A DNA stretch of 40,626 bases from a virus (taxonomy: Duplodnaviria; Heunggongvirae; Uroviricota; Caudoviricetes): positions 1 through 40,626 of IMG/VR virus record IMGVR_UViG_2737471840_000007. One strand, given 5' to 3'. Position numbers and translations under genes: made by a program. Each line of letters begins with the position of its first letter. Position 1 is the stretch's first letter. The notes beneath the pieces are model-generated. The model was not told where the DNA came from. It did not search any database and saw only the letters and a program-made list of their open reading frames with translations. This document shows, piece by piece, positions 1,249 through 27,977 of the stretch.

Positions 1249-1689
1249 ACGTAAACTTTTTCCGGTTGTTGTCGATAGCTCTATATCCCTCAACCGGAAA
1301 ATAATAATAGTAAAATGCTTAGCCCTGCTAATAATCGCCTAATCCAAACGCCTCATTCATGTTCTGGTACAGTCGCTCAAATGTACTTCAGATGCGCGGT
1401 TCGCTGATTTCCAGGACATTGTCGTCATTCAGTGACCTGTCCCGTGTATCACGGTCCTGCGAATTCATCAAGGAATGCATTGCGGAGTGAAGTATCGAGT
1501 CACGCCATATTTCGCTATCAGGATTCTGTGTGATGGTTACATCGCCCGGCCCAGGGCTGTTTAGTCATCAGCGCTTTCTGACAGTGCTGAGATTTCAACC
1601 TGTTGCAGTAAAAATGAGTAGATATAAGGCAAGTGTGCTGCCAAACCCATCTTTTACGGGGTGAAGGTAGATTTCGTTTGAAGGGTATC

Positions 1690-1704
1690 TGGTGTCCCCT
1701 GCAG
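1690..1704 (-). repeat. att core: 15-nt copy of the 3' end of tRNA-Arg (argW), CTGCAGGGGACACCA on the minus strand
   Basis: Minus-strand sequence CTGCAGGGGACACCA equals the acceptor 3' end plus CCA of argW as I recall it; lies 73 nt beyond the excisionase stop at the host/phage boundary. Confidence 0.6.
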
Positions 1705-1777
1705 ACATCTACTTGAAGCGGCAGGGGATTGATTGGAATGGTGTTTTTTAGGTGTGAGAAATATTTTACCCGCTATT

Positions 1778-1978
1778 TTACCCATTGGCGCGGCTTAAGA
1801 GCTTATTTTTGAATTCACAATGGTCACGATATAACCATCTTGCGCGTCCGTGGATAACTTTGGCTTTTGGCAGGTCGCCGGACTTAATCCGGTCATAGAT
1901 GAAGGTTTTACCGAAGCCAGTATCGGCCATGATGAATTTCAAATCAACCAGGGAATCAGGCTGTAGTTCGTGTTGCAT
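1778..1978 (-). CDS. torI: Excisionase / recombination directionality factor, TorI-like (AlpA/Xis winged-helix family)
   Basis: 66-aa ORF MQHELQPDSLVDLKFIMADTGFGKTFIYDRIKSGDLPKAK... matches my recollection of E. coli TorI (KplE1/CPS-53 prophage at argW); GGAG 8-9 nt upstream of ATG. Confidence 0.75.
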   Translation of the reverse strand: MQHELQPDSLVDLKFIMADTGFGKTFIYDRIKSGDLPKAKVIHGRARWLYRDHCEFKNKLLSRANG

Positions 1979-1997
1979 GAGTGCTATCTCCGAATAG

Positions 1998-2013
1998 GGA
2001 ATCGAACCTGCAA
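1998..2013 (-). repeat. tRNA T-arm-like fragment TTGCAGGTTCGATTCC (matches the argW segment immediately 5' of the att core)
   Basis: 16-nt identity to the argW T-arm region as recalled; located 20 nt upstream of the torI start codon. Confidence 0.4.
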
Positions 2014-2020
2014 ATCAGGC

Positions 2021-2050
2021 AATAAAAAACCGCCATCAGGCGTTTTTGTG
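2021..2050. terminator. Bidirectional intrinsic terminator-like hairpin (AAAAAACCGCCATCAGGCGTTTTTG)
   Basis: Short GC stem CGCC/GGCG flanked by A-tract upstream and T-tract downstream on both strands. Confidence 0.5.
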
Positions 2051-2203
2051 TTCTTTCAGTTCTTCAATTCGAATATTGGTTACGTCTGCATGTGCTATCT
2101 GCGCCCATATCATCCAGTGGTTATAGCAGTCGTTGATGTCCTCTGCTTCGATAACTCTGTTGAATGGCTCTCCATTCCATTCACCTGTGACTCGGAAGTG
2201 CAT
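2036..2203 (-). CDS. Small hypothetical protein (55 aa)
   Basis: ORF MHFRVTGEWNGEPFNRVIEAEDINDCYNHW... with GGAG 7 nt upstream; below ORF-track size cutoff; sits between two terminator hairpins so expression is uncertain. Confidence 0.3.
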   Translation of the reverse strand: MHFRVTGEWNGEPFNRVIEAEDINDCYNHWMIWAQIAHADVTNIRIEELKEHKNA

Positions 2204-2212
2204 TTATCATCT

Positions 2213-2241
2213 CCATAAAACAAAACTCGCCGTAGCGAGTT
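2213..2241 (-). terminator. Intrinsic terminator downstream of the 94-aa early gene
   Basis: Perfect 7-bp stem AACTCGC/GCGAGTT with 4-nt loop followed on the minus strand by TTGTTTTAT. Confidence 0.45.
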
Positions 2242-2274
2242 CAGATAAAAGAAATCCCCGCGAGTGCGAGGATG

Positions 2275-2559
2275 TTATTCATTGCCGATATTCACCTTTA
2301 TCGCGAACACCTTTACCGGTTTATCACCGAAGTGCGGATGTGTGATTGTCTTGATTTCATAGCCGCCATACGGAACGTCAATTCTGCGGCTGGAATCGTC
2401 ACGCTTCGGATATCCCTTTGTGATAATCAGGCGGTCATACTCCCGGAACATAATTCGCTTATTCCAATAGTCATTACACAGGCGATACTCTTCCGTTTTC
2501 TCTCCTCGAATCATGGCATCGAAGTATTCACCTTTGACGGCAAGTTGTAGGTTAGCCAC
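2275..2559 (-). CDS. Hypothetical phage early protein (94 aa)
   Basis: ORF in the early-left operon, 8-nt overlap with upstream gene. Confidence 0.55.
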   Translation of the reverse strand: MANLQLAVKGEYFDAMIRGEKTEEYRLCNDYWNKRIMFREYDRLIITKGYPKRDDSSRRIDVPYGGYEIKTITHPHFGDKPVKVFAIKVNIGNE

Positions 2560-2839
2560 GACCTTCCTCCTTTGGCTTGTGAATTTGTATCGTCATGCCG
2601 CTTTGAGTGGTGACTACAATGACAGAACCAGGCTGAAGGCTGTTAAGATTGAATGCTTCGTAAAACGAATCCAAGGCCAGCGCTTTTTTATTCTTTCGGT
2701 TCCACCAACGCCATCCCTTGCTACAGGCTACACTGACAATCCACTGTCCACTCCTGTAAGCCATATAAAACCAGATGAGCAAAACCTGAAGGAAGGCTAT
2801 CCAGTCAATAATCGTATATTTCGCGAAGGAGTCCATCAC
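2552..2839 (-). CDS. Hypothetical membrane protein (95 aa)
   Basis: ORF with hydrophobic N-terminal segment IIDWIAFLQVLLIWFYMAY; overlaps neighbouring genes in operon fashion. Confidence 0.5.
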   Translation of the reverse strand: MMDSFAKYTIIDWIAFLQVLLIWFYMAYRSGQWIVSVACSKGWRWWNRKNKKALALDSFYEAFNLNSLQPGSVIVVTTQSGMTIQIHKPKEEGRG

Positions 2840-3747
2840 TTCACCTCCTGCGGCGGTTCTGGTAGCGGCATCCAGTGTGTGACATTGCTAATCAGACCAT
2901 ATTCATTAGTTTGAGGATGGTTGCCGTTATCGTCTCCGTATTTAAGACTCTCCATAAAGCCATAATGCCTATCACCATTAACGCTCACAAAGCCGTAATA
3001 AGCAGGTATAACGCCGATCTCACACGTAACCAGTAAAGGAAAACTAGTTCTCCAATTTAGCTCGCCGATTACAGGCATTCGCTCACTACAGCTTATCCAG
3101 CCATCCGGAGTTACCGGATAGTTGCCCGATAGCGCATTACGCAATCGCTCCAGCTTCACGTATTCCTGAACCCTGTTTCCGTCGCATGCCTGAAGCCATT
3201 GCGCAGCCTTTTGCGCATCAGTGTGAAAGGCACAAGTGCGACCGTCATCAAATTGCATTTCGTAGAGGTCAGCAACTTGTTCAAACTGCGTATGTTGTGA
3301 CTTGTAAGTTTGGCTTACAGGTTCGGCACCATGAAGCATGGCGTCGCTCCGCTCTATGCCATCCAGCGCGATTCGCAGTGCCTGAATTGTGGTAGAGCTA
3401 TCGTTTGGGGCTATTCCATATCTCTCGAATACAGCTAAATGGTTGCGCATAATCTCAGGCGTAAGCTCTTTGTAAGCATAAGCAAGAGGCTCTGATGCAT
3501 TATCCGGCACAACCGACGCAGGCGCGGCAGCATAAACAGGAATAACGTCCGCTTGCTCTTTATTGCTTTCATCCGTTAAAGCCCAGAATAATTTCCCGGC
3601 CGGATGTTTGAAAATATAAGCAACTGGATCTGCTTCCAGCGATGCCAGCGCAATTCGTGCCAGTTCCATTTGTTCGCCACGGGTAAGCCCGTTTTCAAGC
3701 GTGGATTTAATGAACAATTCGATACGTTCTTTAGTGATAGCGCTCAT
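2836..3747 (-). CDS. DUF551-domain phage protein
   Basis: C-terminal HWMPLPEPP motif typical of DUF551; start placed at the internal ATG (MSAITKERIELF) preceded by AAGGAG and 1 nt after the upstream stop; ORF track extends to 3789. Confidence 0.65.
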   Translation of the reverse strand: MSAITKERIELFIKSTLENGLTRGEQMELARIALASLEADPVAYIFKHPAGKLFWALTDESNKEQADVIPVYAAAPASVVPDNASEPLAYAYKELTPEIMRNHLAVFERYGIAPNDSSTTIQALRIALDGIERSDAMLHGAEPVSQTYKSQHTQFEQVADLYEMQFDDGRTCAFHTDAQKAAQWLQACDGNRVQEYVKLERLRNALSGNYPVTPDGWISCSERMPVIGELNWRTSFPLLVTCEIGVIPAYYGFVSVNGDRHYGFMESLKYGDDNGNHPQTNEYGLISNVTHWMPLPEPPQEVK

Positions 3748-3748
3748 A

Positions 3749-4249
3749 TCACTCTCCTTTGATGCGAATGCCAGTAGCGCGGATTGCATCGATGACTTCA
3801 GAAACTTTGTATGCCATTACCGTTTGGTAATCCTCGTGGAAATCTGTTCGATGAAGCATGCTGCTACGTTCTGGGAGCGATATTTCCCGTGCTTCCAGTT
3901 CTGCAATGCGCTTCTCTGCGGCTTCCAGCTCAACACGCAGTTTCCCTACCGTTAGCGCAATATCCTCGTTCTCCTGGTCGCGGGATTTGATGTATTGCTG
4001 GTTTCTTTCCCGTTCATCCAGCAGCGCCTGCACTACTTCAGGGTTGAAAGCTGCGATATAGCGAGCGTTGTTCTCTGCGTTTTTCTGTTCGTCGAATCCA
4101 GGCCAGTCGACAATATCTCCGTGATGATTATCTCCTGGCGTGTGCACGGCGTACGTGCCGTATTTGCCCGGCGAAATAAATGCGACCCATTCGCCTTGTG
4201 TTGCCTGTTTTGCTATCTCACGCAGTGCCTGATAGTTAATCTCGCTCAC
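3749..4249 (-). CDS. Ead/Ea22-like family protein
   Basis: N-terminus [21 protein letters not shown] typical of lambdoid Ea22-like proteins; coiled-coil C-terminus. Confidence 0.65.
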   Translation of the reverse strand: MSEINYQALREIAKQATQGEWVAFISPGKYGTYAVHTPGDNHHGDIVDWPGFDEQKNAENNARYIAAFNPEVVQALLDERERNQQYIKSRDQENEDIALTVGKLRVELEAAEKRIAELEAREISLPERSSMLHRTDFHEDYQTVMAYKVSEVIDAIRATGIRIKGE

Positions 4250-4761
4250 TGGTTGCCTCCTTTGCGAAGTTTCGCGGCAAAATCAGCCGCAACCTCTTTG
4301 ACCATATTGGAAAGCGGAGTGCCACCTCCGAATTTTTCTGAGAACATCTCCACGCCCTGTGCCCGCAGTTCCGACAGGAAAGAGTCGGTGGCTGGGGTTT
4401 CGATATCGTTAATTTCAGGAAGAATCTCTTCCCATGTGGCGATATCGCCATTCAAATGCCATCCGGCAATTCCACTGGAGTTATCCGCAACACTGCGAAC
4501 GGCTTCAATAGTTTCGAGCATTACCGCATTCTCCGCCGCAAGCGCCGAAAACTTCTCGTGTGCCAACTTAACAGCTGCATCAGCCTGCTTAATTGACTCA
4601 ATCGCTCTCTGCTGGTCTTCGGACAGAGCCGAAATCTTGGCCTCCGCTTCAGCAAATTTACGCACCAGATATTCAGCGTTTGTTTCGTTAACCTTTAAAT
4701 CTCGTGGGATGCATTTACCTTTCAGAAATCCATCCATCTCAATTAGTGACATTTGTTTCAT
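4246..4761 (-). CDS. Hypothetical phage protein (171 aa)
   Basis: ORF with ATGA start/stop overlap with the downstream gene. Confidence 0.55.
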
Positions 4762-4922
4762 TTCTTCCCACTCCGCAACATCGCATTCAGATATTTGTTT
4801 TGATTTACTGACGGAAAAGAATTTCTCTTAAGTAATTCCTCTCTCGATGGCATTGGCTTTACGCGTTGGCGAATAATCATTTCTGCCGGAAGAATGCCGG
4901 GATTGTATGCAAGTCCTCTCAT
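4758..4922 (-). CDS. Small hypothetical protein (54 aa)
   Basis: [24 protein letters not shown]... whose TGA overlaps the ATG of the next gene (ATGA); below ORF-track cutoff. Confidence 0.35.
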
Positions 4923-4938
4923 GGTAAATTCCTCTTTG

Positions 4939-5253
4939 TTAATTTATTCGTATGCCTGCTCTTTCTTCATCGAGTTTTTTTAGTTTGTACCGCATAGCTC
5001 TTACTGAATAAATTGAGCGGCAGGTTGCAATTGCTATTTCTTCTGCGGAGAACTTACCGAAAAGTGATACTTCGGCTCTTGTCCATCGTCTTCCACGAAG
5101 TCGGCTAACAATGTCAGCGCCAATCCTTGTTGCTTTCGCCATTACTGCTTTTTCAGTCCTTTCCAGTTTTTCAGCGATAACTTCAACTGGCATTGTCGCC
5201 GCTACTTCGCGCAAGAAATCGACTTCCCATTTCTCCCATGGAGTCTTTTTCAT
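4939..5253 (-). CDS. Hypothetical phage protein (104 aa)
   Basis: ORF in early operon; basic C-terminus. Confidence 0.5.
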
Positions 5254-5264
5254 AGTCGATACCG

Positions 5265-5753
5265 TTATTTGATAAGAAGTGAAGGTTTCCCAACTTTGAG
5301 TTGAGCGCCGGGGATATTTATTCCTGCTTTTAGTTGGTGTTTGATTGCCAGTTTGTCGGCTTTAATTGTCGTTTCAAACTCAACGTATTCAGGAGGAATG
5401 GCGCTTGAGTCGATGATTTCTACAATTTCTGACGGTTTGCGGATTGTTACCTGGTGAATACCTGCTCGAATATTTTTCTTGCCAACCATTTCAAGCGATG
5501 ACGCTATATATGATTTGATGCTGTCAATCTTATTTTGAATTACTGCGGCTCGCTCATTCAGCGACTTTGCCTCTTCCTTGAGGCGTTCAGCATAACCAGA
5601 TTCATTTTTAATGACGGAAAGAAGTTGCTCTATTTTATCGGTAAATTCTCCTTCCATGCCTTCTATTGTGTCAGCAATCATCTCTGGTTCTAAATCTGAA
5701 TCCATCAATTTTGCGTATTCATTGGCAATTTCATACAGTTTGCTCACTGGCAA
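5265..5753 (-). CDS. Gp157-like phage protein (Sipho_Gp157 family), coiled-coil
   Basis: 162-aa acidic coiled-coil protein immediately downstream of recT, the usual context for Gp157-family proteins; family assignment from memory. Confidence 0.45.
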   Translation of the reverse strand: MPVSKLYEIANEYAKLMDSDLEPEMIADTIEGMEGEFTDKIEQLLSVIKNESGYAERLKEEAKSLNERAAVIQNKIDSIKSYIASSLEMVGKKNIRAGIHQVTIRKPSEIVEIIDSSAIPPEYVEFETTIKADKLAIKHQLKAGINIPGAQLKVGKPSLLIK

Positions 5754-6642
5754 CCTCCAGTTTCGCTTTGCATTCTGCGTAAATGGCTTGTACGTTCTGC
5801 TGCAATTTCATTCCAGATGTCAGGCGATATGCTTCTGCAAAATATCGCTTCAAATCATCCATGTTTTCTGCCTGAGCCATTTCATCACAAAGAAGTTGTG
5901 CTTTATCCGTTATTTCCTGCTGGCGTTTCCGTTCATCTTCGCGGATATCTTCCTCTGATTTGTGCGGCATAACTGGTTCAGTCCACACACCTTCTTCTTC
6001 GTTTAGTACGTGAATAGCACTATCAAGACGTGATGCCTTAGGCCAATACTTGCTTGCACGCTTTACGACCGTCTTTCGCGCCATCTCATTCCAGTGATTT
6101 ACCCATGGTCCTTTATCGCTGAAGGCCGCCTTGCTTGTTTTCCTTACAGCCTCAATTTCAGCCAGACTCATCTCTTCCGTTAGATAATCACCTGCTGGCG
6201 TCTTAACTGTGCAGTAAACGCCAACGATATCACCACGATCACCGAAGGCGTTGTATTTATGGGTTGGTGCTTTATCAAGCCCGTTTGACTCATAGGTATC
6301 GTTAGCATGAACAAGTTTTGCCTGACCCCATGAGATAACACCAGACTCCATTGCAATATGGAGCAATCCCATATAACTGATATCAAGGCACACCATGCCG
6401 TCGCGCGGAACCAGATAAGCCAGTTTGCTGGCCGGGTTTAAGGTGATGCCGATCGCCGCAACATTGATGATGGCGTTCTGTGCGCTGGTTGGGTTTGCCA
6501 GTGCTGTTTTAGCCAGGTAATCATTTTTCTGGAAATACTGAATTGCAAACTGGCTTTCCTTAGCCCATGTCACCGTCTGTTCAGTCAATGCTCCGCAGAA
6601 TAACTGCTCCTGCTGTTTAACGAATTCAACGATATTGCTCAT
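5731..6642 (-). CDS. recT: RecT-family single-strand annealing recombinase
   Basis: 303-aa ORF; motif GPWVNHWNEMARKTVVKR closely parallels Rac RecT GPWVTHWEEMAKKTAIRR. Confidence 0.85.
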   Translation of the reverse strand: MSNIVEFVKQQEQLFCGALTEQTVTWAKESQFAIQYFQKNDYLAKTALANPTSAQNAIINVAAIGITLNPASKLAYLVPRDGMVCLDISYMGLLHIAMESGVISWGQAKLVHANDTYESNGLDKAPTHKYNAFGDRGDIVGVYCTVKTPAGDYLTEEMSLAEIEAVRKTSKAAFSDKGPWVNHWNEMARKTVVKRASKYWPKASRLDSAIHVLNEEEGVWTEPVMPHKSEEDIREDERKRQQEITDKAQLLCDEMAQAENMDDLKRYFAEAYRLTSGMKLQQNVQAIYAECKAKLEVASEQTV

Positions 6643-6950
6643 GCTGCTTCTCCATAAATGTGTCTGCGTTTGAATATTGCGAATGCATATTCAGCCTTAA
6701 CTCTTTCGGTTATTGCATCCCAGAACCATTCAGCGGCTTTTTCCTGATAGTTACAGTCATCATCTTCCAGCCAGTCGATAGCGTCCTTAGTGTGTTCATC
6801 TGGTTTATATGAGCGAAGCATTTCGCTTATTGGGTCGCAACGTTTGCAGAGACGATCAACTTCACTGTTGATTCGTTCGTAATCTTCATCAGTAAAACTT
6901 GCGATTATTTGCGATATTTCACGCTTATCATTCAGAGTCAGAATCATCAT
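6639..6950 (-). CDS. Hypothetical phage protein (103 aa)
   Basis: ORF with AGGAGA SD; ATGA overlap with recT. Confidence 0.55.
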   Translation of the reverse strand: MMILTLNDKREISQIIASFTDEDYERINSEVDRLCKRCDPISEMLRSYKPDEHTKDAIDWLEDDDCNYQEKAAEWFWDAITERVKAEYAFAIFKRRHIYGEAA

Positions 6951-7035
6951 CTTTCTCCTGTTCTTTGTGCTGATTGAGCATTTTGTTCATCTGACGAATG
7001 AATTCTTCGTCTGACCAGTTATCTGTAAAACTCAT
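6928..7035 (-). CDS. Small acidic hypothetical protein (35 aa)
   Basis: ORF MSFTDNWSDEEFIRQMNKML...; ATGA overlap with the upstream kil-like ORF; below cutoff. Confidence 0.3.
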   Translation of the reverse strand: MSFTDNWSDEEFIRQMNKMLNQHKEQEKDDDSDSE

Positions 7036-7184
7036 TTCCTGCGATACCACGGAAGGTTGATAGCTGATTTCATCGCTTTATTTGCTTCAAGCCACATTTT
7101 GGAATCACCAATAAATCTGGCTATTACTGCTTTGTTCTGTGCAGCACGAAGCATCTGGTGATTAATGGCTATTTCATTGCGCAT
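7032..7184 (-). CDS. kil: Kil-like small protein (lambda Kil family, host division inhibitor)
   Basis: 50-aa ORF MRNEIAINHQMLRAAQNKAVIARFIGDSKMWLEANKAMKSA; central A.FIGD.KM motif and position (after cIII, before recombination genes) match lambda kil as recalled. Confidence 0.45.
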   Translation of the reverse strand: MRNEIAINHQMLRAAQNKAVIARFIGDSKMWLEANKAMKSAINLPWYRRK

Positions 7185-7303
7185 AACGCCTCCAGTTGTT
7201 TCTTTGCTGCTCTGATTAATTGTTTAACTCGGCGTGATAATTCAGATTCGTGCGGGTAGAAAGCGGACATGACGCCGCTACCCGCGAGCTGAAAGTGCAT
7301 CAT
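7169..7303 (-). CDS. cIII: CIII-like small protein (FtsH-inhibitor family)
   Basis: 44-aa ORF MMHFQLAGSGVMSAFYPHESELSRRVKQLIRAAKKQLEAL resembles lambda CIII amphipathic helix region; AAGGAG 6 nt upstream of ATG; the ORF-track 79-aa version extends through two terminator hairpins. Confidence 0.5.
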   Translation of the reverse strand: MMHFQLAGSGVMSAFYPHESELSRRVKQLIRAAKKQLEALCAMK

Positions 7304-7325
7304 GGGTAACTCCTTATATTTGATT

Positions 7326-7393
7326 GCATAACGAAAACGCTTCGAGTGAAGCGTTATTGGTATGCATATAAAAAAGCCCTCACACTGGAGGGC
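7326..7393 (-). terminator. Tandem intrinsic terminators between ral and cIII (tL-like)
   Basis: Hairpin GCCCTC-ACACTG-GAGGGC (7376..7393) followed by TTTTTTATAT, then perfect 8-bp hairpin AACGCTTC-GAGT-GAAGCGTT (7336..7355) followed by TTTTCGTTAT, both on the minus strand. Confidence 0.5.
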
Positions 7394-7529
7394 AAAGAAG
7401 ATTTCCAATAATCAGAACAAGTTGGCTCCTGTTTAGTTACGAGCGACATTGCTCCGTGTATTCACTCGTTGGAATGAATACACAGTGCAGTGTTTATTCT
7501 GTTGTTTGTGCCAAAAATAAAGGCCACTA

Positions 7530-7730
7530 TCAGGCAGCCTTGTTATTCTGTTTACCAAGTTCTCTGGCAATCATTGCCGTTGTTCGTATTGCCCATTTAT
7601 CGACATATTTCCCATTCTCCATTACAGGAAACATTTCTTCAGGCTTAACCATGCATTCCGATTGCAGCTTGCATCCATTGCATCGCTTGAATTGTCCACA
7701 CCATTGATTTTTATCAATAGTCGTAGTCAT
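7530..7730 (-). CDS. ral: Restriction alleviation protein Ral-like (4-Cys small protein)
   Basis: 66-aa ORF with CGQFKRCNGCKLQSEC; size, position left of N and 17-nt overlap with a 28-codon ORF mirror lambda ral/orf28. Confidence 0.6.
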   Translation of the reverse strand: MTTTIDKNQWCGQFKRCNGCKLQSECMVKPEEMFPVMENGKYVDKWAIRTTAMIARELGKQNNKAA

Positions 7731-7800
7731 ACGGATAGTCCTGGTATTGTTCCATCACATCCTGCGGATGCTCTTCGAACTCTTCAAATTCTTCTTCCAT
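7714..7800 (-). CDS. Small acidic protein, lambda orf28-like (28 aa)
   Basis: ORF MEEEFEEFEEHPQDVMEQYQDYPYDYDY with GAGGTG SD 4 nt upstream; overlaps ral start by 17 nt as in lambda. Confidence 0.45.
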   Translation of the reverse strand: MEEEFEEFEEHPQDVMEQYQDYPYDYDY

Positions 7801-7858
7801 ATATCACCTCAAATAAGTGGTTTGCTGCCTAATTTTATTTTCTGGCGACCAACACAAG

Positions 7859-8242
7859 TCACCTTGCTGTCAGTTGTTTTGATTTCCTGTAGCCTGCCGC
7901 GTAAAGAGCTACATTTGGAAGACATACACCAGTTTCTGGTTGCCTATGCCCAAACTCATTCGCGTACACAATGGCCGCTCTCTCCAGATTGCGTCTGTAT
8001 TCTTTCTGTTGCCAGATCACGTCCTGTGCCATGAACTTAATTGGCTTAGCGTCTTCTATGCGCTCAGGCGTTTCGTGAGTACCTTTAGCCTGAATCTGCG
8101 CTCTGCTTAGAGTAGGGCGGTGTAATACTTCTGAACTTATTGCTTCTTCGCGGGCCAGTACGCCGTTAGCTAATGCCTTTGCCTTTAAACGCTCACGACG
8201 ACGAGAACGTGAATTGCCTTTGAACTGAGTTCTGCGTGTCAT
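7859..8242 (-). CDS. N: Antitermination protein N (P22 gp24 / phage 21-type)
   Basis: 127-aa ORF with arginine-rich N-terminus NSRSRRRERLKAKALA and C-terminus LPNVALYAAGYRKSKQLTAR resembling P22 gp24 as recalled. Confidence 0.8.
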   Translation of the reverse strand: MTRRTQFKGNSRSRRRERLKAKALANGVLAREEAISSEVLHRPTLSRAQIQAKGTHETPERIEDAKPIKFMAQDVIWQQKEYRRNLERAAIVYANEFGHRQPETGVCLPNVALYAAGYRKSKQLTAR

Positions 8243-8407
8243 ATAGACCTCCTGATGAACTTTGGTGGTGTGGTAGGTGGGAGACCCATTTCGACCTGTT
8301 TCGGCCTACTTCAATTCGGCAATAGTCCCGCAGGCCTCGCCGCTTTACGTGCGACATATTCCCGTCCATGAACCCTTCACCACACCCCAAAGTTCACTTT
8401 GGTTATT

Positions 8408-8422
8408 GCGCTTTGTCAGCGC
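8408..8422 (-). promoter_or_regulatory. nutL boxB (P22-type hairpin GCGCUGACAAAGCGC on the leftward transcript)
   Basis: Exact 15-nt palindromic hairpin GCGCTGACAAAGCGC in the pL leader upstream of N. Confidence 0.6.
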
Positions 8423-8490
8423 CGTAGATTCATATTCGAATCGTTGTATATTCACCGCCCTGGTGAGTAGTGCGTCCTGCTGATGTGTTT

Positions 8491-8519
8491 AGTATCACCG
8501 CCAGTGGTATTTATGTCAA
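8491..8519 (-). promoter_or_regulatory. pL promoter (-35 TTGACA, -10 GATACT)
   Basis: Minus-strand TTGACATAAATACCACTGGCGGTGATACT identical to lambda pL as recalled. Confidence 0.75.
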
Positions 8520-8553
8520 CACCGCCAGAGATAATTTATCACCGCAGATGGTT
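8493..8553. promoter_or_regulatory. Operators oL1, oL2, oL3 (cI/Cro binding sites)
   Basis: Three 17-bp sites TATCACCGCCAGTGGTA, CAACACCGCCAGAGATA, TATCACCGCAGATGGTT matching lambda oL. Confidence 0.8.
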
Positions 8554-8704
8554 ATCTGTATGTTTTTTATATAGATTTATTTTTTTTGCAGGGGTGTGTG
8601 GCTTGGGAGGTGATCGAGAGATCTGAATTGCGATGTTTAGTGAGTTGTATCTATTAATTTTCAAATAAATACAATTGGTTATGTGTTTTGGGGCGAACGT
8701 TAGG

Positions 8705-8735
8705 CAAAGAAAACCCGGCGCGGTGGCCGGGTTTA
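8705..8735 (-). terminator. Intrinsic terminator at end of the immunity-region transcript (tIMM-like)
   Basis: Stem CCCGGC-GCGGTG-GCCGGG immediately after the 216-aa gene stop, followed on the minus strand by TTTCTTTG; A/T tracts on both sides. Confidence 0.6.
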
Positions 8736-8736
8736 T

Positions 8737-9387
8737 TTATTGCTTAGGAGCTTGTTGTGATGACGATTGGTTAGTTGGAGCGCTCGTTAATGGTTGCTGT
8801 GTCGGTACCTGTATTATAATTGGAGCCGGGCTGGTTACTGATGGTGACTTGTCATTGCCGGAGATAATCCAACTTGAGGCTAACATCACGCCAGACAGAA
8901 TCACAGTAACTAAAGTCAAGCCAACGGCCATCGCCCACTGAGTCGTTGTAAGTCCCGTTTTCAAACCGCCGATTTCACCTTTAATTTCAGCAATACCTCT
9001 CTCAATAGAAGAAAATTGCTGAGTATAATAGGTTTTAAAGTCAGCTGATTCGCGACGCATTTCCGCAGCAATAGACTCTACCTCTGATTTGTTTTGTGAA
9101 AGCTTTGCGTCAAGTTCTTCTCTGGACATTCCGCTCACGCTTACCTCCAGGGTATCACTCTTCATCGCTACATCTTCCTTACTTGGGCGCAAACCCGTTT
9201 CGTCCATGGCGTATGAAACTCTATTTGATACCTTAGCATCAATACCAATACTTTGGTACTGAGATGGATCCCCATAAGGAGAAACGGTTGTCGCTGCTAG
9301 GGTTGCACTAACTATAATACTTGGAAGAACTGATGATGTTGTTCCTGAGGTAGGTTGAACTGAAGAAACTGGCTTCAGTCTTTCCAT
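8737..9387 (-). CDS. Hypothetical tail-anchored membrane protein (coiled-coil, single C-terminal TM helix, P/Q/S-rich tail), rexB-position gene
   Basis: 216-aa ORF; TM segment WAMAVGLTLVTVILSGVMLASSWII; start overlaps upstream gene stop (ATGGAAAGACTGA); alternative internal start at MKSDT (9165) has AAGGAAG SD. Confidence 0.6.
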   Translation of the reverse strand: MERLKPVSSVQPTSGTTSSVLPSIIVSATLAATTVSPYGDPSQYQSIGIDAKVSNRVSYAMDETGLRPSKEDVAMKSDTLEVSVSGMSREELDAKLSQNKSEVESIAAEMRRESADFKTYYTQQFSSIERGIAEIKGEIGGLKTGLTTTQWAMAVGLTLVTVILSGVMLASSWIISGNDKSPSVTSPAPIIIQVPTQQPLTSAPTNQSSSQQAPKQ

Positions 9388-9641
9388 AGCCCATTATCCC
9401 TGAGAGCTACCTGTAATGATTTTACTAATGCAACAGCTTGATCCGGGCTCATTGAGACTGACATGTTAGGGGTCAACTCAACTTTTACTTGGAAGCTATT
9501 ATTTCCTTGCTCATCAGACTGCATGTGATGCTCAAATTCATGGCGGTAAAAAGTAATGATTGTTTCAGCACGATCAGGCGTAATAAGAACTGATGTGGCG
9601 GTCATGTGCTGAGGTATGATTTTAATAGTGTTATCTGACAT
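9375..9641 (-). CDS. Hypothetical small soluble protein (88 aa), rexA-position gene
   Basis: Start placed at internal ATG (MSDNTIKIIPQHM) preceded by AAGGA at 5-nt spacing; ORF track gives a longer TTG/ATG-extended version to 9782. Confidence 0.55.
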   Translation of the reverse strand: MSDNTIKIIPQHMTATSVLITPDRAETIITFYRHEFEHHMQSDEQGNNSFQVKVELTPNMSVSMSPDQAVALVKSLQVALRDNGLWKD

Positions 9642-9833
9642 AAGTATCCTTTTTGTTTCCTTAGTATTTTTTTGCATTGACATCAGAAATAGCGAATCCA
9701 CAAGAGTATGAGTAAAGCTAATCAGTTTAGTGATACGGTGACTATTAAAGTGGTAAACCACATCAAAGCTCGCAGAGTGCATACCAGGCTGTCACACATG
9801 ACAAAGTAACGAGGATGCCTGATCTCATAGCGC

Positions 9834-9989
9834 TCAAAGAGACATGCCGATAATGGCATTAACCACGCATGACGCCATAAACACGCCGCCAACGATGAAG
9901 CTGGCTTGGTTCTTCCTGGTAGCGCCAAGAGTCAACAGAACCACTGAAAGGGCAAAAAAAGGTATCGCGATTATGCTGAACGTGTTCAT
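9834..9989 (-). CDS. Small hydrophobic membrane peptide (51 aa, two predicted TM segments)
   Basis: ORF MNTFSIIAIPFFALSVVLLTLGATRKNQASFIVGGVFMASCVVNAIIGMSL with GAGG 6 nt upstream; first ORF downstream of cI on the same strand; below ORF-track cutoff; an antisense 69-aa plus-strand ORF overlaps it. Confidence 0.4.
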   Translation of the reverse strand: MNTFSIIAIPFFALSVVLLTLGATRKNQASFIVGGVFMASCVVNAIIGMSL

Positions 9990-10066
9990 GTTGACCTCAA
10001 CTTATTTCGATTCTCCATCACCCTTAATCCGCCGCCCCATGTGTTTGTTGTGATCCGTTGCTGGCC

Positions 10067-10783
<717 letters not shown>

Positions 10784-10786
10784 TTA

Positions 10787-10815
10787 AATCTATCACCGCA
10801 AGGGATAAATATCTA
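10787..10815 (-). promoter_or_regulatory. pRM promoter (-35 TAGATA, -10 TAGATT on the minus strand)
   Basis: Matches lambda pRM arrangement; transcript would start at the cI ATG (leaderless). Confidence 0.65.
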
Positions 10816-10854
10816 ACACCGTGCGTGTTGACTATTTTACCTCTAGCGGTGATA
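10791..10854. promoter_or_regulatory. Operators oR3, oR2, oR1
   Basis: TATCACCGCAAGGGATA (10791..10807), TAACACCGTGCGTGTTG (10814..10830), TACCTCTAGCGGTGATA (10838..10854). Confidence 0.85.
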
Positions 10855-10856
10855 AT
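10828..10856 (+). promoter_or_regulatory. pR promoter (-35 TTGACT, -10 GATAAT, 17-bp spacer)
   Basis: Sequence as in lambda pR; followed by AAGGAGGT SD of cro. Confidence 0.8.
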
Positions 10857-10871
10857 GGTTGCATGTACTAA

Positions 10872-11081
<210 letters not shown>

Positions 11082-11088
11082 GTAACAC

Positions 11089-11134
11089 CGCTCTTTTCAC
11101 AATGGACATTCGTCCTACGTCGCTGACAAAGCGA
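11089..11134 (+). promoter_or_regulatory. nutR: boxA-like CGCTCTTTT and boxB hairpin TCGCTGACAAAGCGA
   Basis: boxA-like 11089..11097; boxB 11120..11134 with the same GCUGACAAAGC loop context as nutL. Confidence 0.55.
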
Positions 11135-11218
11135 GCCCCAAGATATCTGACCAACTAAGGCCATATGCGTTTCCACGCATACCTTTCAACTAACTATTCA
11201 CTATTGGAAAATTAACAA

Positions 11219-11515
11219 ATGACACAAGCAAGTTACAGCAAGCCAACACAGCGAGAAATTGATCGCGCAGAAACAGATTTACTCATCAACCTGTCAACGC
11301 TTACCCAGCGCGGTCTGGCAAAGATGATTGGCTGTCATGAATCGAAGATAAGCAGAACGGACTGGAGATTTATTGCTTCGGTCTTGTGTGCTTTCGGAAT
11401 GGCATCAGACATCAGTCCGATTAGCAGGGCTTTTAAGTATGCATTGGATGAAATCACAAAGAAAAAATCCCCGGCTGCCACCGAGGATTTTAAGCAAATT
11501 GATATGCAATTCTGA
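11219..11515 (+). CDS. cII: CII-like transcriptional activator
   Basis: 98-aa ORF; ...ESKISRTDWRF... and C-terminus KKKSPAATEDFKQIDMQF parallel lambda CII (...KSQISRWKRDW..., NKKRPAATERSEQIQMEF). Confidence 0.65.
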   Translation: MTQASYSKPTQREIDRAETDLLINLSTLTQRGLAKMIGCHESKISRTDWRFIASVLCAFGMASDISPISRAFKYALDEITKKKSPAATEDFKQIDMQF

Positions 11516-11547
11516 GGGAATTACTGGATCAATCCACAGGAGTAATT

Positions 11548-11709
11548 ATGACAAAACGTCGTAAGAAATACCAGGAAAAAGAAGAGATTCGACACCCTGA
11601 TTCACCTGAGGGATTAGTGGTAGCCGCAGCAAATAACAGGGCGTTCGCAGAGCGCCTTGTTGGTGTTTACAGACTAGCCAAAGCAGGAGTGAAACATGGG
11701 CGTCGTTAA
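11548..11709 (+). CDS. Small basic hypothetical protein (53 aa)
   Basis: ORF MTKRRKKYQEKEEIRHPDSPEGL... with AGGAGT SD; overlaps O start by 14 nt; below cutoff. Confidence 0.3.
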   Translation: MTKRRKKYQEKEEIRHPDSPEGLVVAAANNRAFAERLVGVYRLAKAGVKHGRR

Positions 11710-12517
11710 GTTAGCTGATTACAGGCCTCAACTGGAGGTCGTGGAGCATCGCGTGGCAGATACCGAAGATGGTTTCATGCGCGTTGCTAACGAGATTACC
11801 GACAGTCTGCTGATGGCTGATTTAACCGTCCGGCAGTTGAAGGTGATGCTCGCTATCATGCGCAAGACATACGGATTCAATAAGCCGATGGATCGACTCA
11901 CAAACACGCAGATAGCAGCCATGACAGGTATTCATCACACTCATGTTTGCGCTGCCAAGCGCCAGCTTATTGAGCGTAAATTCCTCATTGCTGATGGCGT
12001 GAAAATCGGAGTGAACAAGGTGGTTTCTCAGTGGATTAGCCAGGACAGCTTAACATTAGCTAAAACAGCTAATAAAACATTAGCCAAGTCGGCTAATGGG
12101 TATAAGCCAAGTCAGCTAAACACAAAAGACAATATACAAAAGACAATAAATACAAATACCCCCTTACCCCCTAACGGGGGCGGCGATGGGCAGGTTAAAC
12201 CTGAACGTCGCAAGGCAGAACGAATCGACTACGAATCCTTCCTGAACGCTTACAACACCGAAGTCGGTGACAGACTGCCACACGCTGTTGCGGTCAACGA
12301 GAAACGCAAACGCCGCCTGAAGAAAATCATCCCGCAACTGAAAACGCCAAACGTGGACGGTTTCAGAGCGTATGTCAGGGCGTTTGTGCATCAGGCCAAG
12401 CCGTTTTACTTCGGAGACAACGACACGGGCTGGACAGCTGATTTTGATTACCTGCTGAGGGAAGATTCGTTAACGGGAGTTCGGGAAGGGAAGTTTGCAG
12501 ACAGGGGGATTGCATGA
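11696..12517 (+). CDS. O: Replication initiation protein O-like
   Basis: N-terminal [32 protein letters not shown] aligns with lambda O LTKRQFKVLLAILRKTYGWNKPMDRITDSQL; iteron array inside the gene. Confidence 0.8.
12034..12158. other. Origin of replication inside O: 3-4 dyad-symmetric iterons plus AT-rich region
   Basis: TTAGCTAAAACAGCTAA (12056..12072), TTAGCCAAGTCGGCTAA (12080..12096), TAAGCCAAGTCAGCTAA (12103..12119), degenerate copy at about 12034..12051, then AT-rich ACAAAAGACAATATACAAAAGACAATAAATACAAATA. Confidence 0.55.
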
Positions 12518-13890
12518 AACAGGATATCGAAGCGAGCGTTATCGGTGGCCTGCTGATTGGTGGATTAACACCAACTGCCAGTGACGTTCTGGCAACGCTG
12601 GAGCCGGAAGCGTTTTCAATTCCGCTCTACCGGAAAGCCTTCGAGGTTATCCGGAAGCAGGCGAGAAACAGAAACCTAATCGACGCGCTGATGGTTGCCG
12701 AGGCGTGCGGAGAGGAGCATTTCACGTCAATCCTGATGACCAGTAAGAACTGCCCGAGTGCCGCAAACCTGAAGGGATATGCCGGAATGGTCGCGGATAA
12801 CTATCACCGCCGTCTGGTGCTGGAAATCATGGATGAAATGCGTGAACCAATTCAGAGCGGAACCATCGACGCATCGAGTCAGGCGATGGATGAACTTGTA
12901 AAGCGTCTTTCAGCCATCAGAAAGCCACGTGACGAGGTTAAACCTGTGCGGTTAGGGGAAATCATCACCGACTACACTGACACGCTTGACAGGCGTCTGA
13001 GGAACGGAGAAGAGTCAGATACCCTGAAGACCGGAATCGAAGAACTTGATGCCATCACCGGAGGGATGAACGCGGAAGACCTTGTGATAATCGCTGCTCG
13101 TCCTGGTATGGGGAAAACCGAACTGGCGCTGAAGATTGCCGAAGGCGTTGCAAGCCGCGTTATTCCTGGTTCTGACGTCCGGCGCGGAGTATTGATTTTC
13201 TCAATGGAAATGAGCGCATTGCAGATTGCAGAGCGAAGCATTGCCAACGCCGGGAGGATGTCGGTTAGCGTACTGCGAAATCCTGCATCGATGGATGACG
13301 AAGGCTGGGCGCGTGTTGCTAACGGCATGAGTCAGCTTGCAGATTTGGATGTATGGGTAGTCGATGCCTCGCGGTTATCGGTCGAAGAAATACGCTCAAT
13401 CGCAGAACGGCACAAACAGGAAAACCCAAACCTGTCACTCATCATGGCGGATTATCTTGGCCTGATTGAGAAGCCGAAAGCAGACCGCAACGACCTTGCA
13501 ATTGCTCACATCTCCGGAAGCCTGAAGGCGATGGCGAAGGACCTGAAAACGCCTGTTATCTCCCTGAGTCAGCTTTCGCGCGATGTTGAGAAGCGACCAA
13601 ACAAACGCCCGACAAACGCAGATTTGCGTGATTCAGGAAGCATTGAACAGGACGCAGACTCAATCATCATGCTCTATCGGGAAGCGGTATATGACGAGAA
13701 CAGTAGCGCCGCGCCATTTGCTGAAATCATCGTGACGAAAAACCGTTTTGGCTCGCTTGGTACGGTTTACCAGCGGTTCTGTAACGGACACTTTGTTGCA
13801 TGTAACCAGGATGAAGCCAGACTGATTTGCACAGCATCAAATGCACCTGCTGCGCGTGGCAGACGATATGCGCAAGGGGCTGACGTATGA
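12514..13890 (+). CDS. Replicative DNA helicase, DnaB family (P22 gene 12-type)
   Basis: 458-aa ORF with Walker A GMGKTE, DnaB C-terminal motifs; ATGA overlap with O. Confidence 0.85.
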
Positions 13891-25018: not shown

Positions 25019-25032
25019 ATCGCAGGTAAACC

Positions 25033-26253: not shown

Positions 26254-26257
26254 TCCA

Positions 26258-26761: not shown

Positions 26762-26772
26762 GGAACAGACGA

Positions 26773-27714: not shown

Positions 27715-27755
27715 CAGCCACATGGCCCCCTGGCGGGGCCATTAAGGATGACCCG

Positions 27756-27977
27756 ATGGCAAAAAATAATGCAGTAATACACGTACATACCCCGTTTGTG
27801 CTCACGCTTCCCGACGGTTCGCGGCGCGAGTTTGTTAAAGGCCGTCATGCAGTGGAGGAAGACGTTGCCACGCACTGGTTCACTCGTGCGCACGCGGAAG
27901 TATCCGTTGTCAAAGCCACAGACGCGCGTAACGAGGTAAAAAATGCCAAAGAATCAAAGTCTGCCAGCGGTAAGTGA
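27756..27977 (+). CDS. Hypothetical phage protein (73 aa)
   Basis: ORF in the head-to-tail region of the late operon. Confidence 0.4.

What the first reader, a model, noticed from the sequence alone, without database searches (positions are those of the whole stretch)
8737..9989. Three-gene membrane cassette occupying the rexAB slot between cI and the immunity terminator: candidate lysogen-expressed exclusion/defence system
cI, pRM, oR, oL and pL here are essentially lambda's, but the two genes lambda carries downstream of cI (rexA, rexB) are absent. In their place, on the same strand and ending at a tIMM-like terminator (8705..8735), are three ORFs. (1) A 51-aa peptide with two predicted TM segments and a GAGG SD (9834..9989). 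(2) An 88-aa soluble protein with an AAGGA SD (9375..9641). (3) A 216-aa protein (8737..9387) whose start overlaps the stop of gene 2 and which has a coiled-coil region, one C-terminal TM helix (WAMAVGLTLVTVILSGVMLASSWII) and a Pro/Gln/Ser-rich tail. By position they should be co-transcribed with cI from pRM and so expressed in the lysogen, as rexAB is. The slot plus the membrane-protein architecture is what one expects of an abortive-infection or superinfection-exclusion module. I do not recognise any of the three proteins.
Basis: partly seen in the sequence, partly recalled or inferred. Interest (0 to 1): 0.85.

Follow-up and report, generated by a model that had tools for sequence, protein, structure and literature searches.

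The report
Unstudied membrane gene cassette replacing rexAB
In the place where phage lambda keeps its rexAB exclusion genes, this prophage carries three real but uncharacterised genes (HK97 gp48, gp49 and an unannotated 51-residue membrane peptide). Relatives of gp49 and gp48 sit directly behind the repressor gene in many enterobacterial prophages, so the cassette is a good but untested candidate for a new prophage-borne phage-exclusion system.

Summary
Homology to lambda stops exactly at the cI stop codon (window 10071) and at the stop codon of the 216-aa gene (8737). A 1333-bp cassette therefore replaces rexA-rexB precisely.

The region is 99.7% identical to phage HK97. The 216-aa and 88-aa genes are HK97 gp48 and gp49, deposited as "Gp48" and "Gp49". 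The 51-aa ORF is not annotated in HK97.

All three are real genes: dN/dS against a Citrobacter copy is 0.10-0.20, and most differences fall at third codon positions.

The pair belongs to a family with 183 representatives at 50% identity. It has no Pfam, NCBIfam, PADLOC or PDB relative. In 40 distinct loci the gp48 homologue follows a small partner gene. This pair usually lies just downstream of a cI-type or other HTH repressor, and in P22-like phages downstream of mnt, in the sieA slot.

The partner and the gp48 N-terminus are exchanged as one unit. The coiled coil, membrane anchor and periplasmic Pro-rich tail stay conserved.

In other E. coli prophages the same cI-to-terminator slot holds RexAB, HicAB, a PIN protein or a PADLOC candidate pair.

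Function remains untested. A lysogen-expressed exclusion system is the best reading, at about 0.5. I found no published test of it.

The parts
9834..9989 (-). orf51: a 51-aa peptide with two hydrophobic segments and a short basic loop (TRKNQ). It is not annotated in the HK97 GenBank record.
   Evidence: The ORF and its GAGG SD are. The hydropathy scan gives two segments. Against Citrobacter L007 there are 16 nt differences, 11 at codon position 3, dN/dS 0.10. The 90% cluster has 25 members and all 15 listed are exactly 51 aa. It is always followed by gp49 and gp48, behind at least four different repressors.
9642..9833 (-). 192-nt non-coding spacer between orf51 and gp49. Some gene callers extend gp49 into it, giving 102, 128 or 135 aa.
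   Evidence: Against the Citrobacter copy it carries a 10-nt insertion and a 1-nt deletion, so the upstream extension is not conserved as coding. It has no Rfam match and no promoter or terminator consensus match.
9375..9641 (-). gp49 (HK97 Gp49): an 88-aa soluble protein predicted as four beta-strands plus a C-terminal helix. It is the small partner of the module.
8737..9387 (-). gp48 (HK97 Gp48): a 216-aa C-tail-anchored protein. It has a low-confidence N-terminus (1-81), a long helix (89-139), a TM helix (about 150-175) and a Pro/Gln/Ser-rich tail with the conserved PIIIQVP motif. Its start overlaps the gp49 stop by 13 nt.
   Evidence: Searches give the ORF, annotation and alignments. AF2 is and hydropathy. 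dN/dS is 0.12, with 16 of 21 differences at codon position 3. The family has 183 representatives at E <= 1e-3. Only sub-threshold coiled-coil Pfam matches were found.
8705..8735 (-). Intrinsic terminator homologous to the lambda tIMM region, ending the cI operon.
   Evidence: The stem-loop has 9 bp, 6 of them GC. It folds at -19.1 kcal/mol, z = -3.7. The region is 89% identical to lambda 35550-35829 and is annotated 'terminator' in the mEp234 and HK106 immunity-region records.
10067..10780 (-). cI repressor (237 aa, HTH_3 plus Peptidase_S24), the first gene of the operon.
   Evidence: The region is 97.8% identical to lambda cI-cro.
10828..10856 (+). pR-like promoter in oR. pRM lies in the same operator region on the other strand and is inferred from lambda.
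   Evidence: Promoter scan. OR is annotated in HK97.
8491..8519 (-). pL-like promoter. It fires away from the cassette, so pL cannot transcribe it.
   Evidence: Promoter scan: TTGACA, 17 nt, GATACT.

Best explanation
The cassette is a lysogen-expressed accessory operon. It is read through from the repressor gene (pRM or pRE, then cI, orf51, gp49, gp48, then the tIMM-type terminator).

Its core is a conserved two-gene module. A small soluble cytoplasmic protein (gp49, or an unrelated substitute) is translationally coupled to gp48. gp48 is tethered to the cytoplasmic face of the inner membrane by a C-terminal anchor. It carries a variable N-terminal segment, a conserved coiled coil and a short conserved periplasmic Pro-rich tail.

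The most likely function is exclusion of superinfecting phages by a Rex-like or toxin-antitoxin-like logic. The variable unit (partner plus gp48 N-terminus) would recognise or be titrated by a phage cue in the cytoplasm. The conserved coiled-coil and TM part would then act at the membrane, either by oligomerising to disturb membrane integrity or by blocking a membrane step of infection. orf51, a two-TM peptide found only in the HK97-type subfamily, would be an accessory or modulating subunit.

Shown here: the genes are real, the synteny behind repressor genes, the modular exchange, and the architecture. Inferred: transcription from pRM, partner binding to the gp48 N-terminus, topology, and any anti-phage activity.
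For: 1. Exact replacement of rexAB between the cI stop and the terminator. The only lambda-type promoters that can read this strand are pRM and pRE. pL and pR point away (plus lambda knowledge).

2. In Citrobacter prophages orf51 starts 13 nt after a different repressor's stop codon. Other versions lie 40-100 nt after theirs. That leaves little room for a separate promoter.

3. Across 40 distinct loci the gp48 homologue always has a small gene directly upstream, and 33 of these are gp49-family. Of 33 distinct next-upstream same-strand proteins, 23 match HTH_3 and 17 match Peptidase_S24.

4. In P22-like prophages the module follows an Mnt-like RHH gene beside arc/ant and the tailspike. That is where P22 has sieA. 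A second lysogenic transcript has therefore been exploited independently.

5. Modular swap: L055 and L017 gp48 homologues are 87% identical over the C-terminal 125 residues. Their N-termini are unrelated and their partners are unrelated.

6. In other E. coli prophages the same lambda-cI slot holds RexAB, HicAB plus a small membrane protein, a PIN protein, or a pair matching PADLOC candidate PDC-M24.

7. All three genes are under purifying selection. The cassette is accessory, present in 52 of 5426 complete E. coli genomes.

Against: A single TM helix plus a coiled coil could equally be a scaffold. The gp48 model is poor outside the helix (mean pLDDT 50), and the gp49 model is only moderate (pLDDT 69).

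No expression or phenotype data were found. HK97 lysogens have been used for decades, and I found no reported exclusion phenotype other than gp15. The key papers (Juhala 2000, Cumby 2012, Brenes and Laub 2025) are not held, so I could not check them.

The slot also holds cargo with no known defence role, for example two hypothetical proteins in E2348/69.
Confidence: 0.5

Rival explanations
1. Superinfection exclusion at the DNA-entry step. gp48, with orf51, sits in the inner membrane. Through its conserved periplasmic tail it would occupy or alter a host inner-membrane or periplasmic component that incoming phages need for genome injection, as P22 SieA, T4 Imm and HK97 gp15 do. There would be no cell death.
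For: The module occupies the sieA slot in P22-like prophages. The periplasmic PIIIQVP-type motif is conserved across the family. Small two-TM proteins accompany it in two subfamilies: orf51 in this window, and 75-76-aa proteins in L056 and L067. A Pro-Ala repeat of variable length in the tail suggests a periplasmic spacer.
Against: The variable, presumably specificity-giving, part of the system is cytoplasmic (partner plus gp48 N-terminus). An injection blocker would be expected to vary on the periplasmic side. The periplasmic tail is only about 40 residues and is predicted to be disordered. There is no similarity to SieA.
Confidence: 0.2
2. A lysogenic-conversion or prophage-maintenance function unrelated to phage defence. 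Examples are modulation of envelope physiology or stress tolerance, like bor and lom, or control of induction, like 434 Hex. The coiled-coil anchor would serve as a scaffold for a host partner.
For: Genes downstream of cI need not be defence genes. The 434 Hex protein modulates RecA-mediated repressor cleavage (PMC3564112, listed). gp48's architecture, a tail-anchored coiled coil, gives only sub-threshold matches, and these are to coiled-coil and tail-anchored families rather than to effectors: CCDC90-like and TIGR04211 SH3-and-anchor for the L017 homologue. No toxic or enzymatic domain is present.
Against: A partner-plus-N-terminus unit that is rapidly exchanged on a conserved body is typical of conflict systems rather than housekeeping conversion genes. 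The accessory distribution across many repressor types points the same way. The same slot holds RexAB, toxin-antitoxin genes, a PIN protein and a PADLOC candidate pair.
Confidence: 0.2
3. An addiction (toxin-antitoxin-like) pair that stabilises the prophage. gp48 would be a membrane toxin held in check by the upstream, translationally coupled gp49. There would be no dedicated anti-phage role.
For: The layout is a small upstream gene overlapping a larger downstream gene by 13 nt. The partner co-varies with the N-terminal segment of gp48. HicAB occupies the same slot in strain PE15.
Against: There is no similarity to any toxin or antitoxin family. The upstream protein has no DNA-binding domain for autoregulation. 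The module rides on the repressor transcript rather than on its own autoregulated promoter. This reading also overlaps the abortive-infection reading, because many toxin-antitoxin systems are defence systems.
Confidence: 0.08
4. Some or all of the ORFs, especially the 51-aa one, are chance reading frames or decaying remnants.
For: orf51 is not annotated in the HK97 record. HK225 has plus-strand ORFs annotated across it instead. Gene callers disagree on the gp49 and gp48 starts.
Against: dN/dS is 0.10-0.20 with third-position bias in all three ORFs. The orf51 length is invariant across the 15 listed members of its 25-member 90% cluster. The 156-aa gp48 calls lie on DNA identical to the 216-aa calls. 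Indels rule out the longer gp49 start.
Confidence: 0.02

Closest known systems
Lambda RexA/RexB abortive-infection system
   Same: It occupies exactly the same slot, between the cI stop and the tIMM terminator, on the same strand, so it is presumably on the same pRM/pRE transcript. The design is also two-component, with a soluble cytoplasmic protein plus an inner-membrane protein.
   Different: There is no sequence relationship. RexA and RexB match their PADLOC models at 9e-110 and 8.6e-61, while the window proteins match nothing. RexB has four TM helices. gp48 has one C-terminal anchor and a long coiled coil. gp49 is 88 aa against 279 aa for RexA. There is an extra two-TM peptide.
P22 SieA (and SieB) superinfection exclusion
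   Same: In P22-like prophages the gp49/gp48-type module sits where P22 has sieA: downstream of mnt, on the mnt strand, next to the ejection-protein genes. Both are inner-membrane proteins.
   Different: There is no similarity to SieA. SieA is a single polytopic protein. This module has two components, with a mainly cytoplasmic body.
BstA of Salmonella prophage BTP1 and other cargo encoded downstream of the repressor (933W Stk, 434 Hex)
   Same: All are encoded directly downstream of the prophage repressor and expressed from its promoter in lysogens. PMC7067206 describes the region between the repressor and N as a common site for accessory loci.
   Different: BstA is a single soluble DNA-binding abortive-infection protein with a DNA self-immunity element. 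There is no homology and the architecture differs. The statements about Stk are from memory and were not checked here.
Tail-anchored coiled-coil membrane proteins (CCDC90/DUF1640-like, TIGR04211 SH3-and-anchor)
   Same: They share an architecture: an N-terminal cytoplasmic part, a coiled coil and a single C-terminal TM helix. Matches are sub-threshold: CCDC90-like at E = 0.12 for gp48 itself and E = 8.6e-6 for the best family member, and TIGR04211 at E = 1.4e-4 for the L017 homologue.
   Different: All matches fall below the curated cut-offs and are confined to the coiled coil. This is an analogy of architecture, not membership.
PHROG 5820 / PHROG 26809
   Same: gp48 and gp49 are clear members, at E = 1e-68 and 4e-62.
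   Different: Both PHROGs are labelled 'unknown function', so membership adds no functional information.

Membership tests
RexAB (lambda) | Sequence homology to RexA and RexB | tested here: not met
   PADLOC gives no RexA or RexB hit for the window proteins. Lambda RexA and RexB, run as a positive control, hit at 9e-110 and 8.6e-61. BLAST finds no similarity between the cassette and lambda 35830-37230.
RexAB (lambda) | Location between cI and tIMM, co-oriented with cI | tested here: met
   The junctions with lambda homology lie at window 10071 and 8737.
RexAB (lambda) | Exclusion of T4 rII and other phages through membrane depolarisation | not testable with these tools
   This needs plaque assays and membrane-potential assays.
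P22 SieA-type superinfection exclusion | Homology to SieA | tested here: not met
   BLASTP of the L067 gp48 homologue against P22 SieA gives E = 0.077 over 26 residues.
P22 SieA-type superinfection exclusion | Position downstream of mnt in the immI region | tested here: met
   This holds for family members in L056-L061 and L067, not for the window itself. An Mnt-like RHH protein (36% identity, E = 6e-10) sits upstream, and arc, ant and the tailspike are adjacent.
Known or candidate defence systems in PADLOC-DB v2.0.0 | HMM match to any component | tested here: not met
   No hits for the three proteins. The only hit is a chance-level PDC-S52 match (E = 0.0095) to the over-extended 135-aa reading of gp49.
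Type II toxin-antitoxin pair | A small upstream antitoxin with a DNA-binding fold, overlapping a toxin of a known family | tested here: inconclusive
   The overlap and order fit. No toxin, antitoxin or HTH/RHH domain was detected. The gp49 model is four strands plus one helix with no fold match.
PHROG 5820 (gp48) / PHROG 26809 (gp49) | Profile match over the full length | tested here: met
   E = 9.6e-69 over residues 20-210, and E = 4.1e-62 over residues 1-88. Both are labelled unknown function.
Lysogen-expressed accessory cargo of the repressor operon | Conserved position directly downstream of diverse repressor genes on the same strand, ending at a terminator | tested here: met
.
Lysogen-expressed accessory cargo of the repressor operon | Transcript present in lysogens | not testable with these tools
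   No RNA-seq data for an HK97-type lysogen were found.

The most novel reading that the evidence does not exclude
gp49/gp48 defines a previously unrecognised, widespread family of two-component anti-phage systems in Enterobacterales prophages. A conserved tail-anchored coiled-coil membrane module would be coupled to a swappable cytoplasmic recognition unit (partner protein plus gp48 N-terminus). The system would be expressed by riding on whichever lysogenic repressor transcript is available, cI-type or Mnt-type. In the HK97 lineage it would be supplemented by a 51-residue two-TM peptide.
Probability: 0.4. Interest if true: 0.7.

Novelty: new variant of a known kind. Interest (0 to 1): 0.55.

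Why it matters
HK97 is a model phage, yet the genes in its rex slot have no assigned function. This analysis shows they belong to a sizeable family with 183 representatives at 50% identity. The family has a consistent position behind prophage repressors and a modular, exchangeable front end. Both are marks of a conflict system.

If the family is confirmed, it would add a defence or exclusion family made only of a coiled-coil membrane anchor and small adaptor proteins, with no enzyme. It would also give a tractable lambda-immunity model for asking how such minimal membrane systems sense and stop phages. Third, it would support 'the gene after the repressor' as a rule for finding prophage defences.

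If the phenotype turns out not to be defence, it would still reveal what many enterobacterial lysogens express constitutively at their inner membrane.

Tried and rejected
- **Family and domain searches.** Pfam, PADLOC, PHROGs and NCBIfam scans of the three proteins gave no functional family. A Pfam scan of 42 diverse gp48 relatives gave only sub-threshold coiled-coil families.
- **Structure searches.** PDB sequence-profile searches with the gp49 and gp48 family alignments found nothing for gp49. For gp48 they found weak coiled-coil matches to trimeric viral fibres, with P22 gp26 at E = 1.3e-4. I treat these as compositional.
- **RNA.** An Rfam scan of 8000-11500 found nothing real.
- **Truncated gp48 calls.** I suspected that the 156-aa gp48 calls in several genomes marked N-terminal pseudogenisation. 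The DNA is identical to the 216-aa calls, so this is only a difference in start-codon choice.
- **Longer gp49 reading.** I considered the 135-aa reading. Non-triplet indels upstream reject it.
- **Co-variation statistics.** Pairwise-identity correlations between the partner and the gp48 N-terminus (rho 0.40) and between the partner and the C-terminus (rho 0.36) are confounded by phylogeny, so I did not use them. The L055/L017 natural swap is the usable evidence.
- **Alternative partners and neighbours.** A Pfam scan of alternative partners and neighbouring small membrane proteins gave nothing apart from a DUF6404 match.
- **Literature.** Searches for HK97 gp48 or gp49, for accession numbers, and for HK97 lysogen exclusion found nothing. 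Juhala 2000, Cumby 2012 and Brenes and Laub 2025 are not held. I therefore cannot rule out that one of them reports a test.
Full report
**1. What is in the sequence**

On the minus strand, downstream of a 237-aa cI gene (10067-10780), there are three ORFs:
- 9834-9989 (51 aa)
- 9375-9641 (88 aa)
- 8737-9387 (216 aa)

The 216-aa gene starts 13 nt before the stop codon of the 88-aa gene. GAGG and AAGGA ribosome-binding motifs precede the first two.

A 19-residue hydropathy scan gives two hydrophobic segments in the 51-aa peptide, separated by the basic loop TRKNQ. It gives none in the 88-aa protein. It gives one at residues 150-177 of the 216-aa protein, followed by a tail that is 63% Pro/Gln/Ser/Thr.

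A 9-bp GC-rich hairpin at 8711-8734 follows the last gene. It folds at -19.1 kcal/mol with z = -3.7.

**2. Relation to lambda and HK97**

BLAST against lambda 35000-38500 aligns two stretches:
- Window 10071-11095 matches lambda 37231-38255 at 97.8%. This covers cI, oR and cro.
- Window 8452-8737 matches lambda 35550-35829 at 89%. This covers pL/oL, the tIMM region and the last 5 nt of rexB.

Nothing in between aligns. A 1333-bp segment therefore replaces the 1401 bp holding rexA and rexB, with both junctions at gene boundaries.

The segment is 99.7% identical to phage HK97. There the 216-aa and 88-aa genes are deposited as Gp48 and Gp49 with no function, and the 51-aa ORF is not annotated.

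The window as a whole is not HK97. Of the HK97 segment retrieved (23774-31272), only window 6986-7488 and 7798-13100 match, and the second match runs to the end of that segment. The late genes resemble a myovirus-type prophage, Citrobacter phage Omnitron.

The whole cassette is present at 99% identity or more in 52 of 5426 complete E. coli genomes.

**3. Are these real genes?**

A Citrobacter prophage (L007) carries the same three genes behind a different, 133-aa HTH repressor. Homology to the window begins 20 nt upstream of the orf51 start codon. The comparison gives:

| Gene | nt differences | at codon position 3 | dN/dS |
|---|---|---|---|
| orf51 | 16 | 11 | 0.10 |
| gp49 | 11 | 8 | 0.20 |
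| gp48 | 21 | 16 | 0.12 |

The 90% cluster of orf51 has 25 members. All 15 listed are exactly 51 residues long and differ only by conservative changes.

The 192-nt spacer between orf51 and gp49 carries a 10-nt and a 1-nt indel against Citrobacter. The longer gp49 readings that some gene callers give (102, 128 or 135 aa) are therefore not conserved, and the 88-aa start is right.

Some genomes call gp48 as 156 aa. Those calls lie on identical DNA and only reflect start-codon choice.

**4. The family and where it sits**

gp48 has recognisable relatives in Citrobacter, Klebsiella, Yersinia, Xenorhabdus and Kosakonia. An exhaustive profile search finds 183 representatives at 50% identity with E <= 1e-3, and 106 with E <= 1e-10.

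The conserved part begins at an S-R-E-E-L-D-A-K-L motif. It runs through a coiled coil whose length varies, in one close pair (L055 against L017) by exactly seven residues, then through the TM helix. It ends at a short motif such as PIIIQVP in the tail. The first 40-110 residues are variable.

A gp49 family was recovered with an alignment of upstream neighbours. It includes a 101-aa protein indexed in 784 blocks of the contig collection and seen in Citrobacter, E. coli, Salmonella and E. albertii.

I collected 40 distinct loci from public contigs and IMG/VR. In all of them the gp48 homologue is directly preceded by a small gene on the same strand. In 33 loci this gene belongs to the gp49 family, counting L003, whose 98-aa partner the greedy ORF picker had missed.

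I scanned 33 distinct next-upstream same-strand proteins. 23 match HTH_3, 17 match Peptidase_S24 and 10 match Phage_CI_repr. In other words, the pair sits just after the prophage repressor, with cro- or YdaS-type genes divergent from it.

The exact orf51 sequence was found behind at least four different repressors, always followed by gp49 and gp48.

In P22-like prophages (L056-L061, L067) the pair follows an Mnt-like ribbon-helix-helix gene (36% identity to P22 Mnt, E = 6e-10). It lies beside arc, ant and the tailspike gene, and a 75-76-aa two-TM protein follows it. In P22 itself that position holds sieA.

So the module has attached itself to two unrelated kinds of lysogenic transcript.

**5. 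Modular exchange**

In eight of the loci the upstream partner did not match the gp49-family profile. One of these is L003, where the ORF picker had missed the true partner. In the other seven the partner is a different protein:
- a 127-aa zinc-ribbon-like protein (L055), distantly related to the 125-131-aa zinc-ribbon partners of L013, L051 and L053, which do match the profile
- 158-165-aa beta-rich proteins
- a 106-aa protein

None of these has a Pfam family.

L055 and L017 form a natural chimera pair. Their gp48 homologues are 87% identical over the C-terminal 125 residues. Their N-terminal 32 and 65 residues are unrelated, and their partners show no alignment at all.

Similar N-terminal motifs also track with similar partners. 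For example, the MPAYHEK motif goes with the 97-101-aa partners, and the VSATLAA-type motif goes with the 87-92-aa HK97-type partners (listing).

The partner and the gp48 N-terminus therefore behave as one exchangeable unit on a constant membrane-anchored body. I infer that the partner binds the N-terminal segment. This was not tested.

**6. Structure and homology searches**

There is no Pfam, NCBIfam or PADLOC family for any of the three proteins. PHROG 5820 and PHROG 26809 match, but both are labelled 'unknown function'.

AF2 predicts gp48 as follows:
- residues 1-81: low confidence
- residues 89-139: helix, pLDDT 82-86 through the 91-120 blocks and falling towards 139
- residues 146-174: TM helix
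- tail: low confidence

The gp48 family profile weakly matches trimeric viral coiled coils such as P22 gp26, reovirus sigma-1 and HA2. I regard these matches as compositional.

**7. The slot is a cargo hotspot**

The pL-terminator flank occurs in 700 of 5426 E. coli genomes. Between it and a lambda-type cI gene, different prophages carry different cargo:

| Prophage or strain | Cargo |
|---|---|
| lambda | RexA-RexB |
| PE15 | YoaK-family small membrane protein, HicA-HicB and a hypothetical protein |
| E2348/69 | two hypothetical proteins |
| O104:H4 | a 180-aa protein plus a DUF1828 protein; both match PADLOC candidate system PDC-M24 |
| O157:H7 remnant | a PIN-domain protein |

A published transcriptome study also describes the region between the repressor and N as a common site of accessory loci. 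It shows bstA being transcribed from the cI promoter (PMC7067206).

**8. Interpretation**

These points are shown:
- three genes under purifying selection
- exact allelic replacement of rexAB
- conserved placement behind repressor genes of many kinds
- a modular partner/N-terminus swap
- a tail-anchored coiled-coil architecture

These points are inferred:
- transcription from pRM or pRE, because only those promoters face this strand (pL and pR point away), and because in Citrobacter only 13 nt separate the repressor stop codon from orf51
- a topology with the N-terminus in the cytoplasm and the tail in the periplasm
- binding of gp49 to gp48
- function

The reading I favour, at about 0.5, is a lysogen-expressed phage-exclusion system with a Rex-like or toxin-antitoxin-like logic. 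The variable cytoplasmic unit would sense a phage cue or be titrated by it, and the conserved membrane part would execute.

An injection-blocking role in the manner of SieA, Imm or gp15 gets about 0.2. It fits the sieA slot and the conserved periplasmic motif. It fits less well with the variability being on the cytoplasmic side.

A non-defence lysogenic function gets about 0.2. It cannot be excluded, because no effector domain and no phenotype are known.

**9. Novelty and limits**

The genes have been in GenBank since the HK97 genome was deposited, so the ORFs are not new. I found nothing in the searchable literature on the following:
- the family-level picture
- orf51 as a selected gene
- the repressor and mnt synteny
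- the modular swap

Three relevant papers could not be read. My recollection that the HK97 genome paper comments on genes 48 and 49 in the rex position is unverified.

The idea that genes downstream of cI are exclusion genes is well established. I therefore class this as a new variant of a known kind and score interest at 0.55. It is a well-supported, cheaply testable candidate in a model phage, but there is no functional evidence yet.

Noticed in passing
L017:5312-5947, L018:5312-5959, L019:5312-5923, L020:5312-5935: Otherwise near-identical gp48 homologues of Citrobacter and E. coli prophages differ only in the number of Pro-Ala repeats in the tail after the TM helix (203, 207, 211 and 215 aa). 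This looks like a slippage-prone length polymorphism in the presumed periplasmic spacer.
   Followed up: no
window 1-7800 and 13100-40626: The window is not phage HK97. Of the HK97 segment retrieved (23774-31272), only window 6986-7488 and 7798-13100 match, at about 99.3%, and the second match runs to the end of that segment. The late region resembles a myovirus-type prophage with baseplate-J genes, 92% identical to Citrobacter phage Omnitron. The early-left region resembles vB_EcoP-683R2 and HK140. It is a mosaic prophage with an HK97/lambda immunity module.
   Followed up: partly
L002:4007-4108 and 4152-4352 (HK225_045, HK225_046); window 9844-10053 (+): The HK225 record annotates plus-strand hypothetical ORFs across the orf51 region. 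The third-position substitution pattern supports the minus-strand 51-aa frame, so these are probably mis-annotations.
   Followed up: partly
L082:4578-4676 (E. coli PE15): In a lambda-cI prophage with HicAB cargo, the first gene after cI is again a tiny membrane protein (YoaK family, 32 aa). The 51 nt just downstream of cI are shared with the window. A small membrane peptide directly after cI may be a recurring feature of this slot.
   Followed up: no
L003:4746-5144 and 5284-5691 (Yersinia intermedia): Two further genes, for 132-aa and 135-aa proteins with an N-terminal TM helix and no Pfam family, lie between the repressor and the gp49/gp48-type pair. They may be extra cargo or additional subunits.
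   Followed up: no
L056:4431-4658, L067:4283-4513, L046:4459-4809: In P22-like and other non-lambdoid contexts the pair is followed, not preceded, by a small hydrophobic protein. These are 75-76-aa two-TM proteins, or a DUF6404 protein in L046 (E = 1e-43). They are not homologous to orf51, but they echo a three-part arrangement of small membrane protein, partner and anchor.
   Followed up: partly
L084:3286-4592 (E. coli O104:H4 prophage): The cargo in the same cI slot is a 180-aa protein plus a DUF1828 protein. They match both components of the PADLOC candidate system PDC-M24, at E = 4e-4 and 5e-7. It is another untested candidate riding on lambda-type cI.
   Followed up: no
A5 profile positions about 115-175 (gp48 residues about 105-150): The coiled-coil part of the family profile gives weak PDB hits only to trimeric viral coiled coils: P22 tail needle gp26 at E = 1.3e-4, reovirus sigma-1 and influenza HA2. 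This may hint at a trimeric state, or may be purely compositional.
   Followed up: no
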